From a virus (lineage: Duplodnaviria; Caudoviricetes): 64,000 nucleotides of DNA. Position 1 is the stretch's first letter. Every line of letters starts with the position of its first letter. Made by a program: the position numbers and the translations under genes. Below are positions 5,759 to 56,282 of this stretch, in pieces. The DNA lies in IMG/VR virus record IMGVR_UViG_2873063797_000002. One strand, written 5' to 3'. The notes under the pieces are model-generated. The model made no database searches. It was not told the DNA's origin and saw only the letters and a program-made list of their open reading frames with translations.

Positions 5759-5831
5759 TCCCCGCTGGTGTAACCGGCAACACGCCCGCCTCTGGAGTGG
5801 GTAGCTACAGGTTCGAATCCTGTGCGGGGAG
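5759..5831 (+). tRNA. tRNA-Gln(CTG)
   Basis: TCCCCGC/GCGGGGA acceptor stem; CCCGC-CTCTGGA-GTGGG anticodon arm; GGTTCGAATCC T arm. Confidence 0.85.
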
Positions 5832-5881
5832 CTGGGGGCGTCCCGTGCGTGACTGATCAGCACGCGCCCGAACGTAGCTGT

Positions 5882-5952
5882 GCGTGGATAGCTCAGTGGC
5901 CGAGAGCACCCGACGCAATCGGGGGACGCGGGTTCAAATCCCGCTCCAATGA
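5882..5952 (+). tRNA. Degenerate tRNA-Cys(GCA)-like gene (possible pseudo-tRNA)
   Basis: Good D and T arms; anticodon loop ACGCAAT lacks U33; acceptor stem needs a bulge to pair. Confidence 0.55.
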
Positions 5953-5992
5953 CGTGCAGCGCTTTCCGACGGCGGGACCCGGACAGCACCCC

Positions 5993-6066
5993 GCCCGCGT
6001 AGGCAAACTGGCAAAGCCGCCCGGTTCAGGCCCGGGAGTCTGGGAGTTCGACTCTCCCCGTGGGTA
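5993..6066 (+). tRNA. tRNA-Leu(CAG) with a short variable loop
   Basis: GCCCGCG/CGTGGGT acceptor stem; CCCGG-TTCAGGC-CCGGG anticodon arm; GGGAG-TTCGACT-CTCCC T arm. Confidence 0.8.
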
Positions 6067-6077
6067 CAGGCAGTCTC

Positions 6078-6149
6078 CGGGACGTAGCCAAGAGGTAAGG
6101 CGCCCGCTTTGGGAGCGGGAGAGCGCGTGTTCGATCCACGCCGTCCCGA
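6078..6149 (+). tRNA. tRNA-Pro(TGG)
   Basis: CGGGACG/CGTCCCG acceptor stem; CCCGC-TTTGGGA-GCGGG anticodon arm. Confidence 0.88.
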
Positions 6150-6156
6150 CACAGCC

Positions 6157-40694: not shown

Positions 40695-41225
40695 GTGTCC
40701 GAACCTGAAACGAGTCAGCCGAAGATCCTCGAACTTTGCGCAGGATACGGGGGCATCGGGTTGGCTGTAGAGCCCCTCATCGACGGACAAGTCACCCACG
40801 TCGCTGAGGTAACCAAGCACGCCTGCAAGATCCTGGAAGACCGGTTCCCCGGAGCCGAGAACATCGGGGACGTCACGAAGTACGACTGGAGCGCCCTCGT
40901 CGGCCGAATCGACGTGATCACCGCAGGGTTCCCCTGCCAGGACATCAGCAACGCCGGCAGGAGAGAGGGCATTAATGGGAAGCGGTCGGGGATCTGGAAG
41001 CAAGTCGCCGAAGCTGTTGGGACACTTCGACCGAAGTACGTCTTCCTGGAGAACGTCGCAGTCCTCCGAACTCGGGGGCTCGACGTTGTCGCCCAGGACC
41101 TGGCCGAAGTCGGGTATGACCTCCGGTGGACGACTCTACGAGCTTCCGACATCGGTGCCGCCCACCATCGGAGCCGGTGGTTCGGGTTCGCGACTCCCGC
41201 TGTTTCCCACCCCGAAGGCATCTGA
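40695..41225 (+). CDS. DNA cytosine-5 methyltransferase, N-terminal part (motifs I-VIII)
   Basis: ELCAGYGG, AGFPCQDIS, LENV, HHRSRWF. Confidence 0.9.
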   Translation: MSEPETSQPKILELCAGYGGIGLAVEPLIDGQVTHVAEVTKHACKILEDRFPGAENIGDVTKYDWSALVGRIDVITAGFPCQDISNAGRREGINGKRSGIWKQVAEAVGTLRPKYVFLENVAVLRTRGLDVVAQDLAEVGYDLRWTTLRASDIGAAHHRSRWFGFATPAVSHPEGI

Positions 41226-42036
41226 CGGGCCGCACGGAGGACTCAACCAGCGCAATGGGAATGGCGAATACGACGCGCTGCCGAGCATGGTGGTGCACCT
41301 CCTCCCTACACCGACGGCGGCCGACGCAAGAGGGACTGCCAACTTCCGCGCGGACGGCACGCCGTACGGGAGCGGGTACGGTCCCACCCTGACGGACGCC
41401 GTTCGTGTGCTTCTGCCGACACCAACAGCACGCGATTGGAAGTCCGGGGCGTCAAACCTGCACGGCCGGAACTCTCGTCCGCTAAACGAAGTGGTGCTCA
41501 CACTTGCGGAGCCGACGAAGTTCTTTGGCACGCCAAGGGCGTCATCAGCCAACGGACCCGGGCGGCTCGACAACCCCAAGAACCAGAGCCGGCTTGAGAC
41601 GCAGGTGGTTCTGCTCAAGACACCCACGGCAAACCTGGGGACCAACGGCGCCGCGCAGCATCCGGACAAGAGGAAGGCCGGAGGACACGGCCCGACACTG
41701 GACGATGAGGTCACGTACCTGATTCCCGAGCCGGACGGCCTAGTGCAGGACTGGGGGCCTTATGAGCCGGCCATCCGACGTCAGGAAGCGTGGATGGACC
41801 GCGAAGCGCCAATCCCCACGGAGGTGGGGCCGCGCGGAGGACGGCGTCTGGCTGCTCGGTTCGCCGAGTGGCTCATGGGCCTTCCTGACGGCTGGGTGAC
41901 AGACACTCCGGGGCTGAGCCGGGGCAACCAGTTGCATGCGATCGGTAACGGCGTGGTGCCCCGGCAGGCGTATTACGCCTTCAAGTCCCTGATGGAACAC
42001 CAGGCACACACGGAACAGCACACAGAGGAGAGCTGA
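40975..42036 (+). CDS. DNA cytosine-5 methyltransferase, C-terminal part (TRD repeats, motifs IX-X) in an overlapping +1 frame
   Basis: Five xxPTPxA-type repeats; EWLMGLPDGW; IGNGVVP. Confidence 0.8.
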   Translation: MGSGRGSGSKSPKLLGHFDRSTSSWRTSQSSELGGSTLSPRTWPKSGMTSGGRLYELPTSVPPTIGAGGSGSRLPLFPTPKASDGPHGGLNQRNGNGEYDALPSMVVHLLPTPTAADARGTANFRADGTPYGSGYGPTLTDAVRVLLPTPTARDWKSGASNLHGRNSRPLNEVVLTLAEPTKFFGTPRASSANGPGRLDNPKNQSRLETQVVLLKTPTANLGTNGAAQHPDKRKAGGHGPTLDDEVTYLIPEPDGLVQDWGPYEPAIRRQEAWMDREAPIPTEVGPRGGRRLAARFAEWLMGLPDGWVTDTPGLSRGNQLHAIGNGVVPRQAYYAFKSLMEHQAHTEQHTEES

Positions 42037-52495: not shown

Positions 52496-53266
52496 ATGAG
52501 CCGCGACCAGATCAACGCCGACCAGATCCGCGCCGCACAGGGTGGCAACAGTGACGCCATGTGGCAGATCGTCATGGGTCTGGACGCGACTCTCCGCGGC
52601 ATCGTCCGCAGCGTCGCCCCGACGGCAAACGAGAAGGACGCGGAGGACTACCTCCAGGAGGCGCGGGTGGTCCTGATCCAGCGCATCAAGGACTTCGACT
52701 CCGACGCGTCGTCGGCATCGCTGATGACTTACGTCTATCAGGCAGCCCGTCGCGCGGTGACGGAGGCGCACATCTCCAACTCGTGCCCCGTCTCCGTTCC
52801 CGCATCGGCCGCGATCGTCGTCCGTCACCTCCTGTGGCGCCACGGTGGCGACGCGGAGAAGGTGTGGGCGGAGCTGGAGGAGCAGCGGAGCGCCACGCAC
52901 AAGATCTCCCGGGAGATGTTCGTCTCGGTCATCGAAGCACTCGCGGAGGTGACGAGCCTCGACGCCCCCACCGGCGGAGAAGACGGCGACGGCTCCGGCC
53001 TCACGCTCTCCGACGTCCTCCCCGACCCCTTGTCGGAAGCCACCGACTCCATCGAGCGCCGCGACCTGGCCCGGTGGCTCATGACGCAGATCCCACAGCG
53101 CCAGGCATACGCGCTTCGCGCCTTCTACGGCGTCGGCATGACGAAGCAGGAGGACGCGGAAACGTGCGACGACCTGACCGTCAAGCCGGCCGCCCTCCGC
53201 AAGCTCCGTTCCCGCGGACTGTGCAGCGCGCTTGCCGTCGCAGACGCGCACGACGTGACCGCGTGA
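52496..53266 (+). CDS. Phage-encoded sigma-70-like RNA polymerase sigma factor
   Basis: DAEDYLQEA (region 2.2), SLMTYVY, SLDAP, LSDVLPD and a region 4-like C-terminus. Confidence 0.8.
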   Translation: MSRDQINADQIRAAQGGNSDAMWQIVMGLDATLRGIVRSVAPTANEKDAEDYLQEARVVLIQRIKDFDSDASSASLMTYVYQAARRAVTEAHISNSCPVSVPASAAIVVRHLLWRHGGDAEKVWAELEEQRSATHKISREMFVSVIEALAEVTSLDAPTGGEDGDGSGLTLSDVLPDPLSEATDSIERRDLARWLMTQIPQRQAYALRAFYGVGMTKQEDAETCDDLTVKPAALRKLRSRGLCSALAVADAHDVTA

Positions 53267-55080: not shown

Positions 55081-55112
55081 GGTTGTGTGGTCGACATAAC
55101 CCGTGCCATAGT
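55081..55112 (+). promoter_or_regulatory. Class B promoter (TTGTGT-N18-CATAGT), also at 57283, 59220 and 60108
   Basis: GGTTGTGTGGTCGACATAACC is identical in four places, each preceded by an inverted operator. Confidence 0.8.
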
Positions 55113-55175
55113 CATCACATCGCAAGGCACACACGGAAGGGGCGCTCCGCACGGGGCGCCCCAGGGGAGGACGTC

Positions 55176-55511
55176 ATGGCACTCACCTTTCACCTGATCT
55201 CGTACCGCACCCTGTCGGGCGAGACAGGCGTGGCCCGGGTCGGTACCGACCGCACCCGCCCGGTCCGATCGGAGTGCAGGGAGCAAATCCCCGGCTTCCT
55301 CAGCGGATCGCACCTGGGGCCGGAGCCGACCCTCACGCTCACCTACGAGACGGAGCGCGGGACGCAGACGAAGACGGTCAGCCGCACCCTGCTGAACCGC
55401 AGCGTCGGCCGGCTCGTCGCCCGCGCTGCGGACCGGGGCGAAGCGTGGAACATCGCCGTCGTCGACGAGCGCGGGGAGGATGTCACCGACTCCGTCCCCT
55501 GCTTCGCCTGA
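55176..55511 (+). CDS. Hypothetical protein (cassette 1)
   Basis: GGAGG RBS after the class B promoter. Confidence 0.65.
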   Translation: MALTFHLISYRTLSGETGVARVGTDRTRPVRSECREQIPGFLSGSHLGPEPTLTLTYETERGTQTKTVSRTLLNRSVGRLVARAADRGEAWNIAVVDERGEDVTDSVPCFA

Positions 55512-55544
55512 CCAACTAGCCGAAGCGCCCTCCGCGGCGCTGGC

Positions 55545-55619
55545 GCCCCGCATAGGCAAGCCCGACTACCCGGTACCCCCAGTGCCGGCGGGCGCGCGGT
55601 TCGAATCCGCGGCGGGGCA
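55545..55619 (+). ncRNA. tRNA-like RNA (75 nt; perfect acceptor and T arms, non-canonical D arm)
   Basis: GCCCCGC/GCGGGGC-A; CGCGG-TTCGAAT-CCGCG; CCGGTA-CCCCCAG-TGCCGG. Confidence 0.65.
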
Positions 55620-55654
55620 CTTCACAGACCTACCGACTCACTAAAGGAGCAACC

Positions 55655-55936
55655 TTGTTCGAGATCTCCCGCATCGCCGACCTGCACCCCACGGCGATCA
55701 CGCACAGCGCCCGTCAGCTCCGCCTAGTCTTCCCCAACGGCTTCGGCGCGTCGGTCATCACCGACGGATACGGCGCGGAGGAAGGGCTCTACGAGGTGGC
55801 CGTGCTGGACGCGGACGGGCACGTCACCTACGACACCCCGGTCACGGGCGACGTCGAGGGATACCAGACCTCCGACGAGGTCGCGGCGCTCCTGCACAGC
55901 ATCGCGGTCCTGCCATCGTCCGCGCTGGAGCGGTGA
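55655..55936 (+). CDS. Conserved phage hypothetical protein
   Basis: FPNGFGASVI...GLYEVAVL...YDTPVTGDV; AAGGAG RBS. Confidence 0.65.
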   Translation: MFEISRIADLHPTAITHSARQLRLVFPNGFGASVITDGYGAEEGLYEVAVLDADGHVTYDTPVTGDVEGYQTSDEVAALLHSIAVLPSSALER

Positions 55937-56282
55937 CCGTGAAGCACAACCCCAACGACTCCGCCATCCGCGCCGCCTTCGACCGCTTCCACACCACGGC
56001 GTCGACGTCCCGCAAGTCGGCCGTCGCCCAGCTCCACACCGACATGAAGCGCGCCGGGGGACCGGTGCCGCAGGAGGAGGAGAAGTGACCACGCAGTACG
56101 AGGAGCACTACATCGTCGAGCACGTCAAGGCGGAGGGGAAGGTCGACGTCGAGCAGTACGACAACCCGTCGGAGGCGATCGGGGCCTACAACGAGCTGGC
56201 CCGTGTGCTGAGTCGCGGAGAGAAGATCAACCTCCACCGGTACAGCTCCGTCGTGCTCGCCTCGTCCGCCCGCGCGAAGTAG
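55933..56282 (+). other. Two small coupled hypothetical genes (55933-56088, 56085-56282)
   Basis: GTGA couplings. Confidence 0.5.

What the first reader, a model, noticed from the sequence alone, without database searches (positions are those of the whole stretch)
55545..55619. Isolated tRNA-shaped RNA with perfect acceptor and T arms but a non-canonical D arm and CCCCCAG loop
Seen: exactly 75 nt, a 7-bp acceptor stem, A73, a canonical GGTTCGAATCC T arm, and a 6-bp anticodon-like stem with a 7-nt loop (nominal CCC, no U33). There is no U8 and no GG D-loop. It is far from the tRNA cluster, inside the first early cassette. Inference: a tRNA mimic, such as a decoy for anticodon nucleases or synthetase-sensing defences, or an RNase P/Z processing signal, rather than a decoding tRNA.
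Basis: partly seen in the sequence, partly recalled or inferred. Interest (0 to 1): 0.7.

Follow-up and report, generated by a model that had tools for sequence, protein, structure and literature searches.

The report
Non-cloverleaf tRNA-like RNA in Streptomyces prophage
A 75-base gene in a Streptomyces prophage encodes a tRNA-shaped RNA with a normal acceptor end and T arm but no D hairpin and a loop of five Cs. About 45 copies in related phages keep the fold through compensating mutations, so it is a working RNA of an uncatalogued kind, but nobody has tested whether it reads GGG codons or acts as a tRNA mimic.

Summary
The element at 55545-55619 (+) is real. ARAGORN calls it tRNA-Gly(CCC), but the Rfam tRNA model misses it even at E<=10.

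- **Distribution.** I found 45 copies (38 distinct), all in Streptomyces phages, prophages or soil contigs. One, in phage AbbeyMikolon, is annotated tRNA-Gly.
- **Fold.** Covariation supports four helices (9 of 22 pairs with double changes; 0 of 500 shuffles reach this). The fold is not a cloverleaf. It has a 7-bp acceptor stem, an 8-nt connector with an invariant GG, one long bulged hairpin and a canonical T arm. The strand that would be the 3' half of a D stem pairs with the variable region, so the anticodon-like stem is nested inside that helix.
- **Apex.** The hairpin tip carries five or more consecutive Cs in 36 of 38 distinct sequences, with C33 instead of U33.
- **3' end.** C74 is invariant, as in 90% of host tRNA genes, so it is probably matured like a tRNA.
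- **Verdict.** It is not a decaying pseudo-tRNA. I favour a non-decoding tRNA mimic that works through its C-run loop (about 0.45) over an odd but functional tRNA-Gly (about 0.3). The reasons are variable helix length, C33, some copies with pyrimidine 37, and no GGG codon bias.

This scan has noted other "rewired" phage tRNAs (Ile, Arg) on other DNA, but not this family.

The parts
55545..55551 (+). Acceptor stem, 5' strand (7 nt)
   Evidence: Pairs perfectly with 55612-55618. In the family, pair 2-71 switches C-G to U-A in 3 distinct sequences and pair 7-66 is C-G or U-G.
55552..55559 (+). 8-nt single-stranded connector. Its core resembles the 3' half of a canonical D loop (G18 G19 N20 A21).
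   Evidence: GG at 55555-55556 is invariant in 38 of 38 distinct sequences. The same hexamer forms the 3' part of the D loop in a canonical phage tRNA-Lys (L084). The G18/G19-like elbow contact is inferred, not shown.
55560..55564 (+). Outer helix, 5' strand (D-stem-like long-range helix)
   Evidence: Pairs with 55589-55593 in the MFE fold. The helix is kept through double changes in AbbeyMikolon, Nesbitt and L195, and is 4-7 bp long across the family.
55565..55569 (+). 5' bulge, A/C-rich and variable in length
   Evidence: 1-9 nt in the family. This bulge accounts for most of the 66-82 nt length range.
55570..55575 (+). Inner (anticodon-like) stem, 5' strand
   Evidence: All 6 pairs show compensatory double changes in the family (helix 3).
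55576..55582 (+). Apical loop with a run of five Cs (nominal anticodon CCC, C33, A37). The first C and last G can pair.
   Evidence: Five or more consecutive Cs in 36 of 38 distinct sequences, including copies found with patterns that did not constrain the loop. With its closing pair it is 9 of 9 complementary to the anticodon arm of host tRNA-Pro(GGG).
55583..55588 (+). Inner stem, 3' strand
55589..55593 (+). Outer helix, 3' strand, occupying the place of the variable region
55594..55594 (+). Single-nucleotide link to the T stem
   Evidence: 0-1 nt in the family.
55595..55611 (+). T arm: 5-bp stem and canonical 7-nt T loop
   Evidence: Pair 51-63 switches C-G to U-A in the AbbeyMikolon group.
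55612..55618 (+). Acceptor stem, 3' strand
55619..55620 (+). Discriminator A73 and encoded C74. No CCA is encoded.
   Evidence: The discriminator varies in the family (mostly A, also U or C). C74 is invariant in 37 of 37 flanks while later positions vary. 74 of 82 host tRNA genes also encode C74, and only 12 encode CCA.
55524..55541 (+). Short GC hairpin between the upstream ORF stop (55509-55511) and the element
   Evidence: Read. It has no T tract and is not called a terminator. It is not conserved in other copies.
55083..55511 (+). Upstream ORF (142 aa, no family match)
   Evidence: In most other copies an unrelated ORF stops 6-18 nt before the element.
55655..55936 (+). Downstream ORF (93 aa, phrog_4074, function unknown) with its own ribosome-binding site

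Best explanation
The element is a small RNA gene of a temperate Streptomyces phage.

**Fold.** It adopts a tRNA-like but non-cloverleaf shape: a normal acceptor/T-arm minihelix, a GG-bearing connector, and one long bulged hairpin. In that hairpin the anticodon-like stem is nested inside a helix formed between the former D-stem 3' strand and the variable region.

**Maturation (inferred).** It is transcribed inside an early operon. I infer that it is cut out by the host tRNA-maturation enzymes, with RNase P cutting at G1, 3' trimming to A73/C74 and CCA completion. This would give a stable RNA of about 77 nt.

**Function (inferred).** I think it most likely does not serve as an ordinary decoder. 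Instead it acts as a tRNA mimic whose working surface is the run of five Cs at the hairpin tip. That run would bind a G-run partner, either an RNA (G-rich mRNA sites, as for actinobacterial 6C RNA, or the anticodon loop of host tRNA-Pro(GGG)) or a protein that reads tRNA anticodon loops.

**Shown versus inferred.** Shown: the fold, its conservation, the tRNA-type ends and the invariance of the loop. Inferred: processing, CCA addition, lack of decoding and the identity of the partner.
For: **Fold and selection**
- 45 copies (38 distinct) score 44-96 bits with my covariance model.
- 96.5% of cells are paired and 9 of 22 pairs have double changes. No shuffle out of 500 reaches this, and slid controls are near zero.
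- G-U pairs occur only when the + strand is read, which sets the strand.
- Flanking genes differ between copies while the element stays about 88% identical.

**Not a cloverleaf**
- RF00005 gives no match at E<=10. It also gives none in five other element-bearing phage records whose true tRNAs score 52-70 bits.
- The ARAGORN D stem is not conserved.

**tRNA-type ends**
- C74 is invariant and -1 is mostly C, matching host tRNA genes (74 of 82 have C74, 12 have CCA).

**Loop as the functional site**
- A C-run of 5 or more is present in 36 of 38 distinct sequences while its stem covaries at 6 of 6 pairs.

**Against ordinary decoding**
- C33 is the rule, against U33 in 74 of 77 ARAGORN calls in the host genome, the element being one of the three exceptions.
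- Four distinct sequences have U at position 37, one has six Cs in an 8-nt loop (L194), and one has CGC.
- The hairpin has 8-13 bp and a bulge of 1-9 nt among close relatives.
- GGG use is 17.6 per 1000 codons in both prophage and host.
- The host has its own, unrelated tRNA-Gly(CCC).

**Precedent for C-rich loops as pairing seeds in actinobacteria**
- 6C RNA (PMC6486639). The host copy has loops with 7-8 Cs.
Against: - There is no direct evidence of a discrete processed RNA. Public RNA-seq coverage was too thin and not size-selected.
- The acceptor and T stems are much more sequence-conserved than the inner stem. C35 and C36 are invariant, and G1-C72 and C2-G71 match glycine identity elements (my knowledge). 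An aminoacylated tRNA-Gly would show exactly this.
- A 32-38 pair able to form C-G also occurs in the host's genuine tRNA-Pro(GGG), so it does not rule out an anticodon loop.
- Other notes of this scan argue that phage tRNAs with the anticodon arm nested in a long-range helix do decode (unverified).
- No partner RNA or protein has been identified, and no conserved neighbouring gene points to one.
Confidence: 0.45

Rival explanations
1. It is a working, aminoacylated glycine tRNA (anticodon CCC) with a rewired D arm. It may be a replacement that host tRNA-cleaving defences cannot recognise. On this view the outer helix stands in for the D stem stacked on the anticodon stem, and the connector GG makes the elbow contact with the T loop.
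For: - ARAGORN calls it tRNA-Gly, and GenBank annotates the AbbeyMikolon copy as such.
- The acceptor stem, T arm, C74 and the central CCC of the loop are all conserved, and the acceptor sequence is nearly invariant.
- Outer plus inner helix come to about 9-12 layers, close to the 10 layers of a D stem stacked on an anticodon stem (the comparison is my inference).
- Phage tRNAs with altered anticodon loops that escape anticodon nucleases are documented (PMC10264068, PMC11555353).
- Other notes of this scan report rewired Ile and Arg phage tRNAs, one of them a C33 variant (unverified).
Against: - C33 is fixed where U33 is nearly universal.
- Some copies have pyrimidine 37, an 8-nt loop or a CGC centre.
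- Stem lengths vary by up to 4-5 bp between close relatives, which is hard to reconcile with a fixed anticodon-to-CCA distance.
- The discriminator varies (A, U, C) and pair 3-70 is C-G where all host tRNA-Gly have G-C.
- There is no GGG codon bias.
- It stands alone, away from the tRNA cluster, and two near-complete phages carry it as their only tRNA-like gene.
Confidence: 0.3
2. It is only a cis-acting punctuation mark. A tRNA-shaped RNase P/RNase Z site would cut the early polycistronic mRNA and set the stability of the flanking messages. The released RNA would have no role of its own.
For: - It sits tightly between same-strand ORFs. The upstream stop codon is usually 6-18 nt away, and the next ribosome-binding site is 15-40 nt after it.
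- In AbbeyMikolon and Nesbitt it is the last feature before a strong terminator hairpin.
- The weak Rfam resemblance is to mascRNA, a tRNA-like 3'-end processing element.
Against: - RNase P and RNase Z need only the acceptor/T minihelix and elbow. They would not hold a five-C loop invariant while its stem covaries.
- The flanking genes are unrelated between copies, so no particular message is being served.
Confidence: 0.08
3. It is a decaying pseudo-tRNA, a leftover tRNA fragment from an integration site, or a chance ARAGORN call.
For: It is missed by the Rfam tRNA model, and ARAGORN also makes several poor calls in this high-GC genome.
Against: - 45 copies show compensatory changes in all helices.
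- Both acceptor strands are present.
- No host tRNA shares more than 13 nt with it.
- It lies inside the prophage, between phage genes that are syntenic across many phages.
Confidence: 0.02

Closest known systems
Canonical bacterial or phage tRNA-Gly(CCC) (Rfam RF00005), including the annotated 'tRNA-Gly' HOS57_gt01 of Streptomyces phage AbbeyMikolon
   Same: It has a 7-bp acceptor stem, a discriminator, an encoded C74, a 5-bp T stem with a canonical T loop, and CCC at the centre of a 7-nt loop followed by A. The AbbeyMikolon gene is a true member of this family (88 bits).
   Different: - There is no D hairpin, and the strand order of the core is changed.
- C33 replaces U33.
- Stem lengths vary between copies.
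- RF00005 does not score it.
- The host tRNA-Gly(CCC) is unrelated in sequence.
'Rewired' non-cloverleaf phage tRNAs (Ile, Arg) reported in other notes of this scan (for example e1-4047454, e1-5787239); not found in any paper searched
   Same: The anticodon arm is nested inside a long-range helix that replaces the D hairpin and uses the variable region. Both are found in phages (including Streptomyces phages) and are missed by tRNA models.
   Different: - In those notes the GG-bearing D-loop segment lies 3' of the anticodon arm. Here it lies 5'.
- Those genes sit in tRNA arrays as the only isoacceptor. This one stands alone.
- I did not compare sequences with them.
D-arm-lacking mitochondrial tRNAs such as metazoan tRNA-Ser(AGY)
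   Same: The acceptor stem is joined to the anticodon stem by a short replacement loop, and the T arm is kept.
   Different: - Those are organellar, AT-rich and used with specialised factors.
- They have no nested outer helix and no conserved GG.
- This comparison rests on my knowledge and was not tested.
tRNA-like domain of tmRNA
   Same: The topology matches: acceptor 5' strand, a single-stranded GG-bearing D-loop analogue, a long helix, a short link, the T arm and the acceptor 3' strand.
   Different: There is no G3-U70 pair, no mRNA-like domain or pseudoknots, and ARAGORN's tmRNA search did not call it.
6C RNA of Actinobacteria (Rfam RF01066; PMC6486639)
   Same: A GC-rich hairpin presents a run of Cs in its loop. 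In 6C such loops are the pairing seeds.
   Different: 6C has two hairpins, longer C runs (7-8 in the host copy) and no tRNA-like part. The two are analogous, not homologous.
mascRNA / MEN-beta tRNA-like RNAs (Rfam RF01684)
   Same: It is a tRNA-like RNA excised from a longer transcript, and this family gave the only weak Rfam match (20.4 bits).
   Different: The score is far below the gathering threshold (42.5 bits), and mascRNA is a eukaryotic nuclear RNA. The resemblance covers only the acceptor and T arms.

Membership tests
Canonical tRNA (RF00005) | 7-bp acceptor stem with discriminator, and a 5-bp T stem with a GTTCRANYC-type loop | tested here: met
Canonical tRNA (RF00005) | D arm: a local hairpin with a 3-4 bp stem and a loop carrying A14 and G18 G19 | tested here: not met
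   ARAGORN's 3-bp stem in the window is absent from homologs. Covariation supports a long-range helix instead.
Canonical tRNA (RF00005) | 7-nt anticodon loop with U33 and purine 37 | tested here: not met
   C33 in 37 of 38 distinct sequences and U37 in four. Of 77 ARAGORN calls in the host genome, 74 have U33, and the element is one of the three exceptions.
Canonical tRNA (RF00005) | Scores above the Rfam gathering threshold (29 bits) | tested here: not met
   No match at gathering or at E<=10. No match at the element in five other phage records.
Canonical tRNA (RF00005) | Aminoacylation and decoding | not testable with these tools
   Needs charging and translation assays.
Rewired non-cloverleaf phage tRNAs (scan notes) | Anticodon arm nested in a helix between a pre-anticodon strand and the variable region | tested here: met
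Rewired non-cloverleaf phage tRNAs (scan notes) | GG D-loop segment located 3' of the anticodon arm, and membership in a tRNA array | tested here: not met
   The GG lies 5' of the hairpin (55555-55556), and the element is 49 kb from the tRNA cluster.
tmRNA tRNA-like domain | G3-U70 alanine identity pair and an mRNA-like tag domain | tested here: not met
   Pair 3-70 is an invariant C-G, the RNA is 75 nt in all, and ARAGORN made no tmRNA call.
mascRNA-menRNA (RF01684) | Score above the gathering threshold | tested here: not met
   20.4 bits against 42.5.
6C RNA (RF01066) | Two hairpins with C-rich loops that match the family model | tested here: not met
   RF01066 matches only the host locus C1:4360018-4360093. 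The element has one such hairpin.
YrlA-type Y RNA | tRNA-like module joined to a Ro60-binding helix, with a Ro60 gene nearby | tested here: not met
   No Rfam match and no room for a second module in 75 nt. No Ro60-like neighbour appeared among the ORFs I scanned.

The most novel reading that the evidence does not exclude
The element is an 'anti-tRNA'. Its loop plus closing pair (55575-55583) is a perfect 9-nt Watson-Crick complement of the anticodon loop and closing pair of host tRNA-Pro(GGG).

- It is the only fully complementary pair among 1,431 pairs of anticodon loops in this genome.
- The target arm is invariant in 149 of 150 other genomes sampled from the genus. One of those genomes, G130, is unpublished, and the claim does not depend on it.
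- The unusual C33 and G38 are exactly the bases that extend this complementarity.

A processed, tRNA-shaped RNA could therefore form a loop-loop kissing complex with tRNA-Pro(GGG) to sequester, shield or sense it. All four element-bearing phages that have any canonical tRNA carry tRNA-Pro(UGG), although four others carry none.
Probability: 0.1. Interest if true: 0.85.

Novelty: new variant of a known kind. Interest (0 to 1): 0.62.

Why it matters
Bacterial and phage tRNAs are assumed to be cloverleaves, and gene finders and Rfam are built on that assumption.

This family is selectively maintained. It keeps the enzyme-facing half of a tRNA, rewires the core, and presents an invariant C-run.

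- If it decodes, it widens the structural limits of tRNAs that bacterial ribosomes accept.
- If it does not, it is a new class of phage tRNA mimic in a genus where tRNA-directed defence and counter-defence are little explored.

Either way it should be annotated as a distinct RNA family and not as 'tRNA-Gly'. AbbeyMikolon, which plates on S. lividans, offers a tractable system for testing it.

Tried and rejected
1. **Public RNA-seq.** Four RNA runs were laid on 55100-56100.
   - Depth was 20 or less, and no read-end pile-ups or joints were seen.
   - Assembled RNA contigs break between about 55372 and 55555 and resume inside the element at 55556-55588.
   - The coverage is too thin, and the libraries are not small-RNA libraries, so I draw no conclusion about a discrete species.
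2. **+1 frameshift idea.** I asked whether a C-run tRNA-like RNA, or an imbalance of proline tRNAs, could drive a +1 frameshift that fuses the split C5 methyltransferase (40695-41225 and 40975-42036).
   - The split and the +1 frame are conserved in two other element-bearing phages.
   - However, the proline codon at the candidate site is CCC-G here and CCT-G there. There is no shared slippery site, so I rejected the idea.
3. **Codon compensation.** GGG frequency is identical in prophage and host.
4. **Recent copy or fragment of a host tRNA.** No similarity beyond the T loop. No canonical tRNA in IMG/VR shares its T-arm and acceptor 3' half: all 23 hits are family members.
5. **Conserved partner gene.**
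   - Neighbours differ between copies.
   - The only recurring genes are a phage sigma factor 2-3 kb upstream and a phrog_17228 peptidase downstream in one phage lineage.
   - No tRNA-related enzyme is present.
6. **Distant homologs outside Streptomyces.** A loose pattern scan gave only ordinary tRNAs at 20-32 bits. L049 (31 bits, loop of four As) is too weak to include.
7. **Isolated-phage relatives of this prophage.** Neither the 1.2-kb region (near mode) nor the sigma factor (protein mode) matches the phage collection. Only AbbeyMikolon and Nesbitt share the element.
8. **Alternative mini D hairpin.** Connector GGC pairing with the following GCC would leave a 2-nt loop in most copies, and the pairing is broken in L061, L194, L196, L197 and L199.
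9. **Literature.** No paper in the searchable library describes this RNA or AbbeyMikolon's tRNA.

Full report
**Setting.** The window is part of an 8.39-Mb, two-contig Streptomyces-type genome (C1:6586304-6650303). The region is prophage-like.
- A phage sigma factor lies at 52496-53266 (phrog_351).
- Genes with phage-family (PHROG) matches follow on the same strand.
- A tRNA cluster lies at 5759-6150.
- Many IMG/VR proviral contigs share the gene order.

**Observation.** ARAGORN calls tRNA-Gly(ccc) at 55545-55620.
The exception is 'no GG', because a GG sits at 55555-55556.
- Rfam's tRNA model does not report it at gathering score. It also fails at E<=10 on a 361-nt slice, where the only match is mascRNA at 20.4 bits against a 42.5-bit cut-off.
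- The minimum-free-energy fold (-43.9 kcal/mol, z = -2.9, 82% of the ensemble) is not a cloverleaf. It consists of:
  - a 7-bp acceptor stem;
  - an 8-nt connector;
  - one long hairpin, with an outer 5 bp, a 5-nt 5' bulge and an inner 6-7 bp;
  - a 1-nt link;
  - the T arm.

**Homologs.**
- A blastn search of isolated phages found only Streptomyces phages AbbeyMikolon and Nesbitt. AbbeyMikolon's copy is annotated tRNA-Gly. Nesbitt's is unannotated and ARAGORN misses it.
- Pattern scans added copies from three collections:
  - IMG/VR;
  - GTDB genomes, with 11 hits, all titled Streptomyces;
  - soil metagenomes, with 4 hits.
- A covariance model built from nine sequences scores 44 copies at 70-96 bits and a divergent one (L195) at 44 bits. 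That makes 45 copies, 38 of them distinct.
- The model finds one copy in the window's own genome and nothing else at E<=1. It finds copies in 3 of 150 other genomes sampled from the genus.
- Flanking genes are often unrelated between copies, while the element stays about 88% identical.

**Structure is under selection.** These figures come from the 38 distinct sequences.
- 96.5% of cells are paired.
- 9 of 22 pairs show changes on both sides, against a shuffled mean of 3.4, and 0 of 500 shuffles reach 9.
- Sliding the partners by 1-3 columns removes the signal.
- The inner stem covaries at all six pairs.
- The outer helix, the acceptor stem and the T stem each have double changes.
- G-U pairs appear only when the + strand is read.
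- The 3-bp D stem that ARAGORN needs in the window copy is absent from homologs.
- The connector resembles the 3' half of a normal D loop, and the same hexamer occupies that place in a canonical phage tRNA-Lys (L084).

My reading is that the D-stem 5' strand and the early D loop are gone. The former D-stem 3' strand now pairs with the variable region, so the anticodon-like stem is nested in that helix. Other notes of this scan describe related 'rewired' layouts for phage Ile and Arg tRNAs. I took the concept from them and checked it on this family only.

**tRNA-type ends.**
- In 37 non-redundant flanks the base after the discriminator is always C, and later positions vary. The base before G1 is mostly C.
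- In the host, 74 of 82 tRNA genes encode C74 but only 12 encode CCA.
- The element therefore obeys the same 3'-end rule as host tRNA genes. That is the best evidence available here that it is matured as a tRNA.

**The loop.**
- Five or more consecutive Cs crown the hairpin in 36 of 38 distinct sequences. This includes copies recovered with patterns that left the loop free.
- C33 is the rule, whereas 74 of 77 ARAGORN calls in the host genome have U33 and the element is one of the three exceptions.
- Four distinct sequences have U at position 37, one has six Cs (L194) and one has CGC.
- Hairpin pairs number 8-13 and the bulge is 1-9 nt.
- GGG codon use is 17.6 per 1000 in both prophage and host.
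- The host has its own, unrelated tRNA-Gly(CCC).

These points weigh against an ordinary decoder, but they do not exclude one. The acceptor stem sequence and C35/C36 are conserved, as glycine identity would require. A C32/G38 combination also exists in the host's own tRNA-Pro(GGG).

**What the loop might bind.**
- C-rich loops are pairing seeds in actinobacterial 6C RNA (PMC6486639), and the host copy has such loops.
- The loop plus its closing pair is 9 of 9 complementary to the anticodon arm of host tRNA-Pro(GGG). It is the only fully complementary pair among 1,431 loop pairs in this genome.
- That arm is invariant in 149 of 150 other genomes sampled from the genus. The unpublished genome G130 is among them, and the claim does not rest on it.
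- This observation was made after the fact, so I offer it only as the most novel reading.

**Context.**
- No tRNA enzyme or other conserved partner gene lies nearby.
- In most copies an unrelated ORF stops 6-18 nt upstream, and the next ribosome-binding site follows within about 40 nt. In AbbeyMikolon and Nesbitt a terminator follows instead.
- A pure processing signal would fit this placement, but it would not explain the invariant loop.

**Expression.** Public RNA-seq was too shallow to show ends.

**Verdict.** This is a real, conserved, uncatalogued non-cloverleaf tRNA-like RNA family of temperate Streptomyces phages.
- It is most likely excised and finished like a tRNA.
- I put a non-decoding mimic that acts through its C-run at about 0.45.
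- I put a rewired but functional tRNA-Gly(CCC) at about 0.3.
- I put processing only at about 0.08.
- I put a pseudogene at about 0.02.
- The remainder goes to unforeseen roles.

Noticed in passing
window 5885-5948 (+): The Rfam tRNA model (42.3 bits, model positions 4-67) hits a fourth tRNA-like gene between tRNA-Gln and tRNA-Leu that ARAGORN does not call. It has a normal D arm and T arm, but its anticodon stem closes on a loop of only 5 nt and its acceptor pairing is weak. It is either a second non-standard tRNA-like RNA in the same prophage or a decayed tRNA.
   Followed up: partly
window 6078-6150; L200-L203 (records G152, G153, G154): Every element-bearing phage that has any canonical tRNA carries tRNA-Pro(TGG), and in G153 it is the only one. 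Two near-complete records (G151, G155), plus AbbeyMikolon and Nesbitt, have no canonical tRNA. These phages are related to one another, so this could reflect shared ancestry and not a functional link.
   Followed up: partly
window 40695-42036; L208 912-1935; L209 1480-2557 (-): The C5 methyltransferase is split in the same way in three divergent phages. Motifs I-VIII are in one ORF, and the rest is in the +1 frame with an overlap of about 240 nt. So the split is conserved and not a sequencing error. There is no shared slippery site at the junction (CCC-G here, CCT-G in the others).
   Followed up: partly
flanks of the element in 37 loci (for example L015, L024, L043, L052 upstream; L004-L006, L010, L013 downstream): Many copies share a short 5' leader (stop codon, then a CCACC-like run ending in C at -1). 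Many also share a 3' trailer of about 8 nt beginning CTCGAAG or CGCAGAAG, even though the neighbouring genes differ. The conserved module is therefore a little longer than the tRNA-like core.
   Followed up: partly
L020, L022, L025, L029, L031, L033, L042, L048, L050, L051, L054, L057 (IMG/VR contigs): A separate group of cloverleaf phage tRNAs came up in a pattern scan. They have a 3-bp D stem, anticodon TAG (a leucine codon reader) and only a short variable loop, unlike bacterial leucine tRNAs.
   Followed up: no
genome C1:118471 and C1:8185395: Two ARAGORN 'tRNA-His(gtg)' calls near the two chromosome ends also have C at position 33. They may be false calls or copies in the terminal inverted repeats.
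   Followed up: no
L156 8085-8157 (+): In a 20-tRNA phage array, tRNA-Arg(acg), tRNA-Asp and tRNA-Trp are called with the anticodon at positions 29-31, earlier than usual. These may belong to the rewired tRNA class noted elsewhere in this scan.
   Followed up: no
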